Assembly: GCF_009914755.1 (NCBI RefSeq)
Contig: NC_060931.1
Origin: the human T2T-CHM13v2.0 reference genome, Homo sapiens
Reading direction: 5' to 3' (one strand)
DNA: 64,000 nt
Positions 16,471 to 59,092 of the stretch are shown piece after piece. Numbering within the stretch: position 1 is the first letter of the stretch; each line of letters opens with the position of its first letter. A program made the position numbers and the translations under genes. The notes below the pieces were generated by a model, which saw only the letters and a program-made list of their open reading frames with translations, was not told the origin of the DNA and made no database searches.

Positions 16471-16715
16471 CAAAATGAGAAGTGCGTGTGTGTGTGTGTA
16501 TGTGTGTAGCAGTTTTTATTTTCAATCATTTTCTGCAGTCACAAGTGAAAGTAAGTTAAATGATGACTCAGTTAACCAATGTTCAAATTAACTGATGCTA
16601 CCAAAGAACACGGACCTCAGTACCATGTTAGCTGCTTTTAAAGAGTCTACTCAAGCGCTTCCCTGGGCCTCATTATTGAACCACTACCAACATGTTCAAA
16701 AATAGAGAGAGGATT

Positions 16716-16800
16716 AGAAACCAAATCCTTCCAACATTTGCATCTCTAGATGTAGAGCTAAGAATTCTGAAATAAACAAATGCAGTGAATTTGGAAATGA
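16716..16800 (+). promoter_or_regulatory. Putative TAS2R39 proximal promoter module (octamer + forkhead/E-box)
   Basis: ATTTGCAT 16736-16743 and ATAAACAAATG 16772-16782, both conserved upstream of TAS2R40. Confidence 0.6.
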
Positions 16801-16861
16801 TACATCAATTGCTTCCTCCTATGACATCAATACTGGGAGTTATCAAGAGTCTGCCCATCAA

Positions 16862-17878
16862 ATGCTAGGGAGATGTTTTCCTCCAGACACCAAAGAGAAG
16901 CAACAGCTCAGAATGACTAAACTCTGCGATCCTGCAGAAAGTGAATTGTCGCCATTTCTCATCACCTTAATTTTAGCAGTTTTACTTGCTGAATACCTCA
17001 TTGGTATCATTGCAAATGGTTTCATCATGGCTATACATGCAGCTGAATGGGTTCAAAATAAGGCAGTTTCCACAAGTGGCAGGATCCTGGTTTTCCTGAG
17101 TGTATCCAGAATAGCTCTCCAAAGCCTCATGATGTTAGAAATTACCATCAGCTCAACCTCCCTAAGTTTTTATTCTGAAGACGCTGTATATTATGCATTC
17201 AAAATAAGTTTTATATTCTTAAATTTTTGTAGCCTGTGGTTTGCTGCCTGGCTCAGTTTCTTCTACTTTGTGAAGATTGCCAATTTCTCCTACCCCCTTT
17301 TCCTCAAACTGAGGTGGAGAATTACTGGATTGATACCCTGGCTTCTGTGGCTGTCCGTGTTTATTTCCTTCAGTCACAGCATGTTCTGCATCAACATCTG
17401 CACTGTGTATTGTAACAATTCTTTCCCTATCCACTCCTCCAACTCCACTAAGAAAACATACTTGTCTGAGATCAATGTGGTCGGTCTGGCTTTTTTCTTT
17501 AACCTGGGGATTGTGACTCCTCTGATCATGTTCATCCTGACAGCCACCCTGCTGATCCTCTCTCTCAAGAGACACACCCTACACATGGGAAGCAATGCCA
17601 CAGGGTCCAACGACCCCAGCATGGAGGCTCACATGGGGGCCATCAAAGCTATCAGCTACTTTCTCATTCTCTACATTTTCAATGCAGTTGCTCTGTTTAT
17701 CTACCTGTCCAACATGTTTGACATCAACAGTCTGTGGAATAATTTGTGCCAGATCATCATGGCTGCCTACCCTGCCAGCCACTCAATTCTACTGATTCAA
17801 GATAACCCTGGGCTGAGAAGAGCCTGGAAGCGGCTTCAGCTTCGACTTCATCTTTACCCAAAAGAGTGGACTCTGTGA
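16862..17878 (+). CDS. TAS2R39: Taste receptor type 2 member 39 (bitter taste GPCR), intronless, 338 aa
   Basis: 7 hydrophobic segments; TAS2R motifs [51 protein letters not shown]; N-terminus MLGRCFPPDTKEKQQLRM recognised. Confidence 0.97.
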   Translation: MLGRCFPPDTKEKQQLRMTKLCDPAESELSPFLITLILAVLLAEYLIGIIANGFIMAIHAAEWVQNKAVSTSGRILVFLSVSRIALQSLMMLEITISSTSLSFYSEDAVYYAFKISFIFLNFCSLWFAAWLSFFYFVKIANFSYPLFLKLRWRITGLIPWLLWLSVFISFSHSMFCINICTVYCNNSFPIHSSNSTKKTYLSEINVVGLAFFFNLGIVTPLIMFILTATLLILSLKRHTLHMGSNATGSNDPSMEAHMGAIKAISYFLILYIFNAVALFIYLSNMFDINSLWNNLCQIIMAAYPASHSILLIQDNPGLRRAWKRLQLRLHLYPKEWTL

Positions 17879-18107
17879 CCAGCACCCAAGAAGACCACAG
17901 GACCTGGCCTTACCAGCTCTGCCATTCCCTCACCTAGACCTCTCTTTTCTCTCTTCTTTTCTTCTCCAACCCTCATCTGACCCTTTTCGCCTGATGTGGC
18001 TTTTTATATAGGAAATTGATCATTTCTTTTTTGCTTCATGGGTACAATCTTAGTGGTACTGTCATATTCTTTACCTGAGCCCTCTACCTCCCCTTGCTCT
18101 GTTTAAA

Positions 18108-38200: not shown

Positions 38201-38817
38201 TGGCTCATTCAAACCAGAGCCCAGGCACAGATTGAAAGCTTGAGTGGAGGTGGATTTGGAAAGAGGAATGAAAAGGACACAGCTCTGGAAACTGGGGGGA
38301 ATGAGCCCGTGTCACTGCCAAGATGGAAGGGTAGGCAGTGCATTCCCACATGTCTGACCCTAAGATTTCAAATTTCATTAGTAGCATCTCCTTTAGCTCA
38401 ACCTAACTACAAGGAGAACGAGAAATACAAGGAAGTCCCTGCCATGTTTGGGGAGCATTTTTATCTCTGCCCCAGCATCTCCCATTTTCTGCTGAACTAA
38501 AAACCTTTCTCTTTCTCAAGATATGTGGAAAAGGAAAAGGAGAAATAAGGAATATCTCTTACTTTAGTCCTTCATTTTTCTAGCTTCCCAACTCTCCAAC
38601 TCAGACTCTCGCTCTGACCCCCAAGTCAAATATGGCAGGTAGCACTGCCTTCTTTAGGGGTCTTCCAGATTATGCTACCACCACCACCACCACCACCACT
38701 CCACTTTTCAGAAACATGTGGGTTTCCACTTGTCAAAAATAAAACAACCCTCTTGATCATTATAGACTTGGGGTCTTGGCTAGAGAACAAATGAAAACAG
38801 AATTAAGAACAAAGAGG

Positions 38818-54520: not shown

Positions 54521-55308
54521 ATTTTGGATCTCAATCCTGACTATGAGCAACAAGACCTTTCGGCTTTTTTAAAAGATAGCATGCCTGAGCCCTAGTCCAG
54601 TTCTGATTTCCTAGATTTGGACGAGTCCTGGGCATCTACATATTCTTGTAAAGTGCCAGAGTTCATTCTGGTTCACAGCCAGGGTTAAAAAGTAGGAAAT
54701 TAAATTTCAAGTCATAGTACCTTATCACATTTCCAAACTTCAACACCATGTCCAGAACACTGAATTCTCCCCAGGCTCATTCTACCTGATTCTGAGCTCA
54801 AATAGTCATGTGGGATCTCAGTAAGCTGAAATTGATGACACATACACAAACAATAAAAACTGGGACTATGGAGACTTCCTTCTCTCCAACTCGAATAGCA
54901 TCCAATTTTGGCTTTTCTATATACTATTCGAGGACATTATAATAGCAGGCCTTTTTGGAAGAAACTCAATTCTAAGTAAAAGATGTTCATATATGAGCTT
55001 ATGGGAATTTCTTATTCACAAACATGGTAACTATCAAAATAAAACTCTCTCCCAAAATAAGAGAGACAAGAAAAGAAGTGGGGAAAACAGATTTTAAAAG
55101 CTGTATGAGCTTTTACAAATAATTTAGCAGGTAACAGAGATCTTGTGAGACAAGTAAAAAGGCCTTGTATTCATTGCTTATCAGGTAAATGTGGACTTAA
55201 AGTAAATAAGGTAAGAAGGTGTTGAGCTAGAAACATGTCTCAAATTATTTCCAGTGAGCTTCTGAAAGCCCAAGACAAATGTATCTTTATGAAAAATTGA
55301 GACAGACC

Positions 55309-55392
55309 CAGTAACCAGATCCTCTCATTATTTGCATGTGAAGCCTCTAACTTGTAGTCATGTGATAAACAAATGGAGAAAAATTGGAAATA
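55309..55392 (+). promoter_or_regulatory. Putative TAS2R40 proximal promoter module (octamer + forkhead/E-box)
   Basis: ATTTGCAT 55330-55337 and ATAAACAAATG 55365-55375, both conserved upstream of TAS2R39. Confidence 0.6.
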
Positions 55393-55480
55393 ACCATTAA
55401 TGAGGGCGGCAGAAATTATAACATTGAGCAAGGGTCAGAAGATTGCAGAGCAGTTACCCATTCTTGGCGCAGAAACCTGA

Positions 55481-56470
<990 letters not shown>

Positions 56471-56748
56471 CTGGAACTCACGGAGTTCTGCGGGACCTGG
56501 TCCAACCACTTCTGCCTTTGCCTCAGGTAGAACTCTCTCCTCACCCGTCTCTTCTCTCCCAAACCTGCTCTGACACTTCTCAGATAACGTGATCCTTTTA
56601 TAAATATGAAGCTGAATTTTTAACTTGAGATTCTAAACAGAAGTAACTAAGAAACCTGAAGATGGACTTTGAAAGCTCCTTGAACTATGTTCATTCATAT
56701 CCTGCCCTGAGATCTCTCCACTTTCTTCTCCTCCTGAGCCTTAAGGAG

Positions 56749-57804: not shown

Positions 57805-57838
57805 CACACACACACACGGCATACACACAGACACACGG

Positions 57839-57873
<35 letters not shown>
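57805..57873 (+). repeat. (CA)n compound microsatellite
   Basis: CA units with duplicated cggcata interruptions. Confidence 0.95.
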
Positions 57874-57876
<3 letters not shown>

Positions 57877-59092
57877 TTCCTTTATAGCTCAGACAGCTTG
57901 GGACTTATTTACCTGAAAAGTAAAATATTAATAAAACACACATTTTTGATAGTTTTCTTAAGCTATAGTTATTTATATGACTATTTCAGGCGGTATTTGT
58001 TATAGTAAGACAAATTAGATATTGAAGTTTTATTCCAGTCCCTAGAATAGAGAAATATACATTTTCTTCCAAGTTATATATATTGATAAAAGGGTCATGT
58101 ACCCACTAAGGGTTCTCTGATGCATTACAGAGTTAGAGAGAAAATTGATTTAAAGTTGCCATTATATTAACATGAACCATGTCAAGACCACAAAGTGGAT
58201 AACTCCATACTTACTATGAAGAAATATCATCTCATTGCTAGCAAGAGCCTAAGGCAGCACATAGCTAACAAAAGCTCCAAGGATGATAACATCCTTATCG
58301 ATGCACATGTTGGCCTGCCTTCAACGAGATAAAATTCTCTCCAATTCTCTTTCTTCTGTATGTAAAACCCAAGTAAGCACTCAGAAAGACCCAGAATACC
58401 TAGTCTTCAAGTTGTCTGGCTTTAGACAGCAATCAGAAGTCCTAAATGAAGACAATAATCGACTCTGCTGGACAAAAGTCTGTAACCAAATGCAAAGCCC
58501 GGCTTGCTGTGGTCTCAATATTATTACAGGTTTTCACCTTGCAAACTCTACATCATCTCCCTCGCCCCACAGCCCTGCGGGATGTTGAAAGTGATAGAGT
58601 GAAGGATTCCTTTACCCACAAAGTCACTCTGAATATTCATCTAGCATGTGGAGCAGGTAAGGGGACTTTGGTTAGCAATGGATTCCAGTCTGGCAGGCCC
58701 AGCCCAGAGGCAGGGTATCTGGCTTCTTTCCTCATACCTGGTCGAGTCCTTGCAAATAAAGGCTAGACTGGCAGCCATGGCCAGTCTAAGGGCTATGACT
58801 TTATGGGCACCAGATTGTCCCACAATCCAGTATCATCTTCCCCTTCCAACTACTTCGGTGTCTGCTAAAATTCCACTGTGGTTCTGGCTTTTCTTTGCTT
58901 TTATTCTACAGGAAATCTGTTATTCTCTCAGGCATTCTTTACTTGGGGCAGCAGGGAAGAAACATCTATGTAATAAAAAGAAAAGAAACTGTAAGTCCAA
59001 CCAGTCTAAAATGTCTTGTGCTGGGGGAGGGGAGCAGAAACCAAGGGCTAACTAATTATGTCTTGTTGGAGACAGGGCAACTTGTGCATTAG

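What the first reader, a model, noticed from the sequence alone, without database searches (positions are those of the whole stretch)
16716..16800. Octamer + forkhead promoter module conserved upstream of both TAS2R39 and TAS2R40
Seen: the 5' flanks of the two paralogs are mostly hard to align, but two blocks persist. Block 1 is agaaaccaaatccttccaacATTTGCAT (octamer 16736-16743) vs agtaaccagatcctctcattATTTGCAT (55330-55337). Block 2 is ATAAACAAATGcagtgaatttggaaat (16772) vs ATAAACAAATGgagaaaaattggaaat (55365). Orientation is the same, the spacer is 28 vs 27 bp, and the octamer starts 177 vs 169 bp before the homologous agaATG (16913 / 55499). Known: ATGCAAAT is the POU2-class octamer; POU2F3 (Skn-1a) specifies type II taste cells and tuft cells and uses POU2AF2/POU2AF3 cofactors on octamer sites; TAAACA is a forkhead core; CAAATG is an E-box. 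Inference: a paralog-footprinted cis module through which POU2F3 plus a FOX or bHLH factor directly drives these receptors, possibly also in extra-oral tuft cells. The octamer alone is common in the L1s of this window, so the evidence is the paired positional conservation.
Basis: partly seen in the sequence, partly recalled or inferred. Interest (0 to 1): 0.8.

Follow-up and report, generated by a model that had tools for sequence, protein, structure and literature searches.

The report
Shared octamer site in bitter-receptor promoters
The short DNA word ATTTGCAT seen in front of two bitter-taste receptor genes is real, and it sits in the same orientation in front of most human bitter-taste receptor genes, which suggests direct control by an octamer-binding factor such as the taste-cell regulator POU2F3.

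Summary
Both blocks lie where stated: block 1 is 22 of 28 identical, block 2 is 23 of 27. Both sit on the coding-sequence diagonal, and 0 of 2000 shuffles reach either score. They are better conserved than the adjoining N-terminal coding DNA, which is 55% identical.

The octamer is not special to TAS2R39/40. In the window's own genome, 18 of 30 TAS2R loci carry a perfect ATTTGCAT on the gene strand 177-391 bp before the Pfam match. Counted by old lineage it is 16 of 21, against 4 of 21 for the best unrelated 8-mer. An olfactory-receptor control had such a site at 2 of 30 loci. The genes that carry it are a median 34% identical as proteins.

The forkhead-type ATAAACA at +35/+36 is confined to the 39/40 pair. 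Block 2 may instead belong to a family-wide class of sense-oriented RCAAAT words.

Binding by POU2F3 is inferred, not shown. Six library searches found no report of a TAS2R octamer. The nearest is an Oct motif upstream of TAS1R4.

Verdict: a real, selected promoter element, family-wide. It is a new member of a known kind.

The parts
16698..16708 (+). Upstream block AAAAATAGAGA of TAS2R39. It is the counterpart of AAAAATTGAGA in TAS2R40 and a one-mismatch copy of the family motif AAATTGAG.
   Evidence: collinear, 10 of 11 identical. ATTGAG occurs 5' of the octamer in 7 of 19 lineage representatives vs 12 of 600 background pieces.
16716..16735 (+).
   Evidence: 14 of 20 identical to 55310-55329.
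16736..16743 (-). Octamer of TAS2R39. It reads ATTTGCAT on the gene strand, which is canonical ATGCAAAT on the minus strand.
   Evidence: Family-wide presence.
16772..16798 (+). Block 2 of TAS2R39: ATAAACAAATG (forkhead-type ATAAACA 16772-16778, CAAATG 16777-16782), a variable stretch, then TTGGAAAT 16791-16798.
   Evidence: 23 of 27 identical to TAS2R40. Position among the family.
16854..16858 (+). CCCAT in TAS2R39, a possible counterpart of the CCCATTC at the RefSeq 5' end of TAS2R40. It lies 4 bp before the annotated ATG at 16862.
   Evidence: A weak, inferred initiator: CCCAT is not significantly enriched (6 of 19, p 1.2e-3 before correction for 755 tests).
16913..16915 (+). ATG of TAS2R39 that is homologous to the TAS2R40 start (agaATG).
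55292..55302 (+). Upstream block AAAAATTGAGA of TAS2R40. It contains AAATTGAG.
55310..55329 (+). 5' part of block 1 in TAS2R40 (agtaaccagatcctctcatt).
55330..55337 (-). Octamer of TAS2R40 (ATTTGCAT on the gene strand). It lies 120-127 bp before the RefSeq 5' end at 55457.
   Evidence: The exon start 55457 comes from the hub's gene table.
55365..55391 (+). Block 2 of TAS2R40: ATAAACAAATG, a variable stretch, then TTGGAAAT.
55457..55463 (+). CCCATTC at the annotated 5' end of the TAS2R40 mRNA. It is initiator-like (YYANWYY, a recalled consensus).
   Evidence: and the hub's gene table. The same CCCATTC follows the near-octamer of locus L018.

Best explanation
The octamer is the core of an old proximal-promoter element that nearly the whole TAS2R family has inherited and kept under purifying selection. 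It has a fixed orientation: ATTTGCAT on the gene strand, about 130-390 bp before the receptor domain.

The most likely reader of this site is POU2F3 (Skn-1a), the POU factor on which bitter, sweet and umami taste cells and tuft cells depend. Its POU-specific and POU-homeo domains would bind ATGC and AAAT. The A at position 5 would let it recruit OCA-T1/T2, and with them chromatin-opening activity, so that TAS2R promoters become usable in that lineage.

POU2F3 is also present in cells that do not express TAS2Rs. The octamer can therefore only license a promoter. Clade-specific neighbours would add selectivity: AAATTGAG 5' of the octamer, sense-oriented RCAAAT words, and in TAS2R39/40 the block ATAAACAAATG...TTGGAAAT.

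Shown here: the presence, orientation, enrichment and conservation of the motifs.
Inferred: which protein binds, that it activates, and where transcription starts.

My split of the odds: a selected cis element 0.9; POU2F3 as its reader 0.6; block 2 as a forkhead site 0.25.
For: 1. Family-wide presence. 18 of 30 TAS2R loci have a perfect ATTTGCAT on the gene strand at -177 to -391 from the Pfam match start, and one more (L014) has it in the sense orientation. A further locus (L017) has it at -826, inside a promoter block pushed upstream by an insertion.
2. Density. 20 octamers lie in 8.4 kb of zone (2.38 per kb) against 12 in 107.8 kb of the rest of the same loci (0.11 per kb) and 10 in the 64 kb window.
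3. Unbiased census. Among all 8-mers in -450..-100, ATTTGCAT is present in 16 of 21 lineages. The best unrelated 8-mer is in 4 of 21. In three control zones the top words are A/T runs in 5-7 lineages. The chance of 16 of 21 at the background rate is about 1e-21 or less. After merging every pair of lineages whose flanks still align it is 12 of 16, 2.5e-16 or less.
4. Controls. 30 olfactory-receptor loci had 3 octamers in the same zone, 2 of them in this orientation (Fisher p 1.9e-5). Two weak chr19 Pfam matches had 0 of 2.
5. Depth of divergence. The 18 carriers have a median protein identity of 34%, and 122 of 153 pairs are below 40%. In 12 conservative lineages the 8 octamer columns are 12 of 12, while flank columns average 5.6 of 12 with a maximum of 9.
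6. Within the 39/40 pair, the blocks (79% and 85% identical) exceed the first 240 coding columns (55%).
7. Literature, passages only. OCA-T binding needs A at octamer position 5 (PMC12755459). POU-type motifs are enriched in type II taste-cell accessible chromatin, and Tas2r loci are open mainly in those cells (PMC10239704). A conserved ATGCAAAT upstream of TAS1R4 was ascribed to Skn-1a (PMC10781636).
Against: - No binding, accessibility or reporter data for these sites could be examined.
- In the supplements of PMC9170729, 'tas2r' occurs once in 8 files: a Pou2f3 ChIP peak 3.9 kb from Tas2r118 in mouse intestinal tuft cells. None is at a proximal Tas2r promoter.
- The authors of PMC10239704 found no correlation between Pou2f3 gene score and motif accessibility, and they suggest a repressor role.
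- POU2F3 is also expressed in sweet and umami cells, so the octamer cannot explain bitter-cell specificity.
- In the young chr12 clade only 4 of 9 loci keep a perfect site. 4 have one mismatch and 1 has two. L015, L018 and L031 have only one-mismatch versions, and I chose those anchors by eye.
- Only one 5' end (TAS2R40, RefSeq) places the site upstream of a transcript. No consistent TATA-like word was found.
- Conservation in other mammals could not be tested here.
- Lineages share ancestry, so the binomial measures retention against chance occurrence. It does not count independent events.
Confidence: 0.6

Rival explanations
1. The octamer is functional, but another octamer-binding protein reads it. 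One option is the ubiquitous POU2F1/OCT1 acting as a general promoter element. Another is that the site serves repression rather than activation.
For: Every POU2-class factor binds ATGCAAAT (recalled). PMC10239704 reports Pou5f1 and Pit1 motifs, not Pou2f3 itself, as enriched with footprints in type II cells, and it suggests that Pou2f3 may repress. A mouse tuft-cell Pou2f3 ChIP re-analysis shows no proximal Tas2r peak.
Against: TAS2R expression is restricted to Skn-1a-dependent cells (PMC10131560 passages), which a ubiquitous factor alone would not explain. All perfect sites carry the A5 that the lineage-specific coactivators need.
Confidence: 0.2
2. Block 2 of TAS2R39/40 is not a forkhead/E-box pair. 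It is this clade's copy of a second family element, a sense-oriented RCAAAT word (a weak, inverted octamer-like half site) that accompanies the main octamer.
For: - Sense RCAAAT occurs 19 times within 100 bp of the main octamer in 19 lineage representatives, against 4.8 expected (P 7e-7). Antisense ATTTGY occurs 3 times against 4.0 expected.
- 16 of 19 representatives have at least one.
- In five chr12 loci (L009, L011, L012, L016, L027) the word sits 4 bp after the octamer, as AACAAAT, ACAAATGAG or GCAAATG. This resembles AACAAATG in block 2.
- The forkhead word at +35/+36 is found only in 39/40.
Against: Homology between block 2 and the chr12 element is not demonstrable, because the spacing differs by about 27 bp. 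ATAAACAA is a full match to the forkhead consensus RTAAACAA (recalled). All 11 bases are identical in both genes, and a 6-base RCAAAT reading does not require that.
Confidence: 0.3
3. The conserved word acts in RNA. Transcription would start upstream of it, and AUUUGCAU would lie in a 5' untranslated region, which would also explain the fixed orientation.
For: The orientation is almost uniform: 18 antisense-oriented vs 2 sense in the zone. Start sites are unmapped for nearly all TAS2R genes. The hub's table gives no 5' UTR for TAS2R39.
Against: The only annotated 5' end (TAS2R40, 55457) lies 120 bp downstream of the octamer. The word is exactly a well-known DNA-binding site. Orientation is inherited, so its uniformity needs no RNA function.
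Confidence: 0.07
4. The two blocks are leftover similarity from the duplication, or from gene conversion between TAS2R39 and TAS2R40, and have no function.
For: - The 3' flanks also align: 92 of 130 identical, 17900-18025 vs 56493-56619.
- The 3' two thirds of the coding sequence plus 110 bp beyond the stop are 77.9% identical.
- One stretch of the coding sequence is 93% identical, which could mean past conversion.
Against: The blocks border the least similar part of the genes: 55% in the first 240 coding columns. A conversion tract therefore does not reach them. The same 8 bases are kept in genes only 27-40% identical as proteins, on three chromosomes.
Confidence: 0.03

Closest known systems
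Octamer in immunoglobulin variable-gene promoters, read by Oct-1/Oct-2 with the coactivator OCA-B (recalled; OCA-B and its structure are cited in PMC12755459)
   Same: A large family of receptor genes in which almost every member carries the same 8-base octamer, in a fixed orientation, a short way upstream of the gene. The site is read by a POU2-class factor plus a lineage-restricted OCA coactivator that needs A at position 5. Light-chain promoters use the same ATTTGCAT orientation (recalled).
   Different: In immunoglobulin genes the octamer lies about 70 bp before the start site next to a TATA box (recalled). Here the one annotated 5' end is 120-127 bp away, and no consistent TATA-like word was found. 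Binding and function are proven for immunoglobulin genes and only inferred here.
Conserved Oct motif upstream of TAS1R4 (Nat Ecol Evol 2023, PMC10781636; passages read)
   Same: ATGCAAAT is conserved upstream of a taste-receptor reading frame, and its authors ascribe it to Skn-1a/Pou2f3.
   Different: That case is a single T1R gene followed across species of fishes and reptiles. The authors did not see Oct sites at the other novel TAS1Rs. Here the site is shared across paralogues of the unrelated T2R family within one genome, and orthologues were not examined.
POU2F3-OCA-T1/T2 complexes on octamer DNA in tuft cells and tuft-like lung cancer (PMC12755459, passages; PMC9534498, search listing and one supplement look-up only)
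   Same: The same DNA word with the required A5. The same cell lineage as taste type II cells, according to the literature.
   Different: Those papers describe mostly distal enhancers in cancer lines. No TAS2R promoter is mentioned in the passages I saw.
Olfactory-receptor promoters with shared O/E-like and homeodomain sites (recalled)
   Same: A chemoreceptor multigene family whose members share short promoter motifs that tie the whole repertoire to one cell lineage.
   Different: The motifs and factors differ. The 30 olfactory-receptor loci tested here do not share the octamer (3 in the zone), although that zone may not be their promoter, since many have upstream exons (recalled).

Membership tests
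POU2-class octamer site | 8 of 8 match to ATGCAAAT | tested here: met
   reverse complement of ATTTGCAT at 16736-16743 and 55330-55337.
POU2-class octamer site | Adenine at position 5, needed for OCA coactivator docking | tested here: met
   Read from the sequence. The requirement is stated in PMC12755459.
POU2-class octamer site | Conserved beyond its flanks | tested here: met
   Among paralogues: 16 of 21 lineages; octamer columns 12 of 12 vs a flank mean of 5.6 of 12. Orthologues in other species were not available.
POU2-class octamer site | Occupied by POU2F3 (or another POU factor) in the relevant cells | not testable with these tools
   The only indirect look found one distal Tas2r118 peak in mouse intestinal tuft-cell ChIP.
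Forkhead site (RYAAAYA, recalled consensus) | Match to the consensus in both genes | tested here: met
   ATAAACA at +36 (TAS2R39) and +35 (TAS2R40) from the octamer.
Forkhead site (RYAAAYA, recalled consensus) | Shared with other TAS2R promoters at a comparable place | tested here: not met
   2 of 19 representatives have it at +35/+36. Elsewhere there is only GTAAACA at +12 (L006), TGTTTAC at +7 on the other strand (L012), and scattered ATAAATA.
Forkhead site (RYAAAYA, recalled consensus) | Bound by a forkhead factor in taste or tuft cells | not testable with these tools
   No data available. Foxa1 motifs were reported enriched in type I, not type II, taste cells (PMC10239704).
E-box (CANNTG) | Match and conservation | tested here: inconclusive
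   CAAATG is present in both genes (+41/+40) and at +13 in L011, L012 and L016. It is a 6-base word of low information that overlaps the RCAAAT class.
Octamer-dependent proximal promoter of the immunoglobulin type | Octamer within about 100 bp upstream of a mapped start site, with a TATA box | tested here: inconclusive
   The TAS2R40 RefSeq 5' end is 120-127 bp downstream. TATAA at 55417 is 40 bp before it and fails the TATAWAWR scan. No consistent TATA-like word was found across the 26 loci scanned.

The most novel reading that the evidence does not exclude
The octamer is the common address label of the whole bitter-receptor repertoire. POU2F3 with OCA-T1/T2 would directly license every TAS2R promoter, as Oct-2/OCA-B does for immunoglobulin V genes. 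The clade-specific words beside the octamer would then decide which subset of receptors a given bitter cell or tuft cell expresses. These words are AAATTGAG at a fixed 9-10 bp in four chr7 loci (L030, L031, L018, L032), RCAAATGAGAATT in the chr12 clade, and ATAAACAAATG...TTGGAAAT in TAS2R39/40. Loss or weakening of the octamer in the young primate clade would then be a source of expression differences between receptors.
Probability: 0.3. Interest if true: 0.8.

Novelty: new member of a known kind. Interest (0 to 1): 0.62.

Why it matters
Reviews state that TAS2R transcription is poorly understood. Only SREBP-2 at one mouse gene is named (PMC5299619 and PMC8529754, passages), and [quoted passage not shown] (PMC10239704).

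A single 8-base site shared by most TAS2R genes would link the taste and tuft-cell master regulator directly to the receptor genes. That link can be tested with one class of mutation, at 8 known bases per gene. It would also give a handle on why TAS2Rs appear in extra-oral chemosensory cells. Natural one-base variants in the young chr12 clade would serve as ready-made experiments.

Tried and rejected
- A first global alignment with free end gaps gave a meaningless result. It was replaced.
- A TATA-like scan (TATAWAWR, at most 1 mismatch) downstream of the octamer gave no consistent position in 26 loci.
- 5- and 6-mers downstream of the octamer, including CCCAT (6 of 19), do not survive correction for 755-1554 tests.
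- A SIX/MEF3-like word TCANGTTTCA (recalled consensus) lies 16 bp after the octamer-homologous site (24 bp from its first base) in only 3 loci of the young clade (L017, L019, L021). It is not family-wide.
- Neutral leftover similarity and gene conversion were considered and rejected (see rivals).
- Literature: one search failed on a term's syntax. One search was too loose and returned nothing about TAS2R.
- The supplement of PMC9534498 held only an expression table, cut when stored, with one TAS2R14 row. It was of no use for binding.
- bioRxiv supplements were not opened. Subscription-journal papers, for example early TAS2R gene-family descriptions, are outside the library and may bear on priority.

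Full report
**The observation.**
- ATTTGCAT lies at 16736-16743 and 55330-55337.
- Block 1 is 22 of 28 identical and block 2 is 23 of 27.
- The spacers are 28 and 27 bp.
- The octamers start 177 and 169 bp before the shared agaATG.

A Smith-Waterman alignment of the 5' flanks gives one local match, 16698-16798 vs 55292-55391, 72 of 103 identical. It is the same whether 300, 500 or 1000 bp are offered.

**Is it more than chance?**
- In a 12 kb by 12 kb blastn the two blocks have weak E-values on their own (0.035 and 0.12). They lie on offsets 38593 and 38594, next to the coding diagonal at 38589.
- Restricting the test to 15 diagonals either side of the ATG anchor, 0 of 2000 dinucleotide-preserving shuffles reach either observed score.
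- In the whole 3.1 Gb assembly the composite ATTTGCAT-N20-35-ATAAACAAATG occurs 5 times. Two of these are the present sites. The reversed control pattern occurs once.

**Is it leftover similarity?** The paralogues are 57% identical as proteins, 183 of 322 residues. The similarity is very uneven:
- Nucleotide identity is 55% in the first 240 alignment columns of the coding sequence.
- It rises to 93% in columns 600-720 and 84% near the end.
- The well-matched part runs 110 bp past the stop codon.
- The 3' flanks align at 92 of 130.

So the 3' part may have been homogenised or is strongly constrained. The 5' blocks border the most diverged part of the genes and are far better kept than it. That already argues for constraint.

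**The family.** The window's own genome can be searched. Pfam PF05296 (TAS2R) gave 48 matches. I examined the best 30 as loci L006-L035, each with 1500 bp of flank. The other 18 matches are fragments, decayed copies and two weak chr19 matches.

- A perfect ATTTGCAT on the gene strand lies 177-391 bp before the start of the Pfam match in 18 of the 30 loci. One more locus (L014) has the octamer in the other orientation at -194.
- The loci are on chromosomes 7 and 12. The single chr5 locus has only a one-mismatch version.
- In the zone -400 to -120 there are 20 octamers in 8.4 kb. The remaining 107.8 kb of the same loci holds 12, and the 64 kb window holds 10.
- Most loci without a perfect site have a one-mismatch version at the homologous place. 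In the young chr12 clade these are GTTTGCAT, CTTTGCAT and ATTTGAAT (L019, L021-L023). In pseudogene L027 it is TTTTGCAT. Elsewhere they are ATTTGCCT (L015), ATTTGCTT (L018) and GTTTGCAT (L031). I picked these anchors by eye.
- Two young-clade loci (L017, L024) have insertions that push the old promoter block upstream. L017 keeps a perfect octamer at -826. L024 has ATTTGTGT.

**Unbiased and controlled tests.**
- I counted every 8-mer in -450..-100. The young chr12 clade counted as one lineage. L035 was dropped because it is a fragment whose match starts at model position 111. ATTTGCAT is in 16 of 21 lineages. The best word that does not overlap it is in 4 of 21. In three control zones of equal size the top words are A/T runs in 5-7 lineages.
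- At the background rate, about 0.02-0.03 per 350 bp zone and orientation, 16 of 21 has probability about 1e-21 or less. Merging all lineages whose flanks still align above the 99th percentile of a null gives 12 of 16, 2.5e-16 or less.
- These figures measure retention against chance occurrence. The lineages share an ancestor, so the uniform orientation is inherited.
- Thirty olfactory-receptor loci treated the same way have 3 octamers in the zone, 2 of them in this orientation (Fisher p 1.9e-5). The two weak chr19 Pfam matches have none.
- The 18 carriers have a median pairwise protein identity of 34%, a minimum of 27%, and 122 of 153 pairs below 40%.
- Anchored on the octamer, 12 conservative lineages show 12 of 12 at each of the 8 positions. 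The 80 flank columns average 5.6 of 12 and never exceed 9. Anchoring on the octamer biases this view, and the census is the check on it.

**The neighbours of the octamer.**
- The forkhead-type ATAAACA at +35/+36 is found only in TAS2R39 and TAS2R40 among 19 lineage representatives.
- ATTGAG (AAATTGAG) lies 5' of the octamer in 7 of 19 representatives against 12 of 600 background pieces. In four chr7 loci (L030, L031, L018, L032) it sits 9-10 bp before the octamer. In TAS2R39/40 the gap is 28 bp.
- Sense-oriented RCAAAT words are in excess within 100 bp of the octamer: 19 against 4.8 expected, P 7e-7. Antisense ATTTGY words are not: 3 against 4.0.
- In five chr12 loci (L009, L011, L012, L016, L027) such a word follows the octamer after 4 bp (ATTTGCAT-nnnn-RCAAATGAG).
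- The ACAAAT inside block 2 of TAS2R39/40 belongs to this class by sequence. Whether it does so by descent cannot be shown.
- The second half of block 2, TTGGAAAT, is 8 of 8 identical between the two genes and remains unexplained.

**Position relative to the transcript.** Only TAS2R40 has an annotated 5' end, at 55457 in the hub's table. It falls on CCCATTC, 120-127 bp after the octamer. TAS2R39 has CCCATC at 16854, and L018 has CCCATTC after its near-octamer. CCCAT is not significantly enriched, and no consistent TATA-like word exists. The promoter reading is therefore reasonable but rests on one annotated end.

**Mechanism.** ATGCAAAT is the canonical POU2 octamer (recalled).
[quoted passage not shown] All perfect TAS2R sites have it.
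- Bitter, sweet and umami cells depend on Skn-1a/Pou2f3 (PMC10131560, passages).
- In mouse taste tissue, Tas2r loci are accessible mainly in type II cells, whose open chromatin is enriched in POU-type motifs (PMC10239704, passages).

The simplest reading is that POU2F3 with OCA-T docks on the octamer and makes TAS2R promoters usable in this lineage. Other inputs would restrict them to bitter cells. Eya1 marks bitter cells, and Etv1 marks the other Skn-1a cells and may repress T2R genes.

Against this reading:
- The same scATAC study found no correlation between Pou2f3 gene score and motif accessibility, and suggests repression.
- A re-analysis of Pou2f3 ChIP-seq from mouse intestinal tuft cells lists only one Tas2r-associated peak, 3.9 kb from Tas2r118.
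- The young chr12 clade tolerates mismatches.

**What is known.** Six searches of the open-access library combined TAS2R, T2R or bitter with octamer, Oct-1, POU2F3, motif, promoter or the word ATGCAAAT itself. None found a paper describing an octamer at TAS2R promoters.
- Two reviews name only SREBP-2 as a TAS2R transcription regulator.
- A 2025 review of bitter receptors has no passage on promoters or transcription factors of these genes.
- The nearest report is a conserved ATGCAAAT upstream of TAS1R4 in fishes and reptiles, attributed to Skn-1a. Its authors saw no Oct site at the other novel TAS1Rs (PMC10781636).
- Subscription journals are outside the library, so an earlier mention cannot be excluded.

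**Verdict.** The element is a new member of a known kind, an octamer-bearing promoter of a receptor gene family. It is directly testable.

Names of loci other than TAS2R39 and TAS2R40 were not given by any tool. By recall of their N-termini and positions:
- L030 is probably TAS2R60.
- L031 is probably TAS2R38.
- L018 is probably TAS2R16.
- L020 is probably TAS2R41.
- L008, L013 and L014 are probably TAS2R3, TAS2R4 and TAS2R5.
- L015 is probably TAS2R1.
- L006, L010, L007 and L009 are probably TAS2R7, TAS2R8, TAS2R9 and TAS2R10.
- L011 and L012 are probably TAS2R13 and TAS2R14.
- L026 is probably TAS2R42.

Noticed in passing
window 16854-16915: The annotated TAS2R39 start codon (16862) lies 4 bp after a CCCATC that matches the CCCATTC at the RefSeq 5' end of TAS2R40. 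The ATG homologous to the TAS2R40 start is 51 bp further on (16913), which is residue 18 of the annotated protein. If transcription starts at the CCCAT, the annotated ATG would be very close to the cap, and the shorter protein may be the real one.
   Followed up: partly
window 17234-18025 vs 55823-56619: Similarity between TAS2R39 and TAS2R40 is strongly lopsided. It is 55% in the first 240 coding columns, up to 93% in columns 600-720, and 77.9% over 760 bp running 110 bp past the stop. The 3' flanks align at 92 of 130. This suggests past gene conversion of the 3' part or a conserved 3' untranslated region.
   Followed up: partly
L017 (G000:C12:10902276-10906166) and L024 (G000:C12:10964728-10968618): In two young chr12 TAS2R loci, an insertion of roughly 500-700 bp lies between the old promoter block and the coding sequence. 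It moves the octamer-homologous site to about -826 and -1016. The inserted DNA was not identified.
   Followed up: partly
L019 and L021 at -306, L017 at -802 (relative to the Pfam match start): TCAGGTTTCA begins 24 bp after the first base of the octamer-homologous site in three young chr12 loci. By recall it is a full match to the SIX-family MEF3-type consensus TCANGTTTCA. Eya1, the usual SIX partner by recall, is reported in bitter cells (PMC10131560).
   Followed up: partly
L030, L031, L018, L032: In four chr7 TAS2R loci, AAAT(T)GAG or CATTGAG sits at a fixed 9-10 bp before the octamer, as if the two formed one composite site. Which factor would read the first half is unknown.
   Followed up: partly
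window 16484-16508 and 57805-57879: (GT)n/(CA)n microsatellites lie about 230 bp upstream of the TAS2R39 octamer and about 1.3 kb downstream of TAS2R40. They are ordinary.
   Followed up: no
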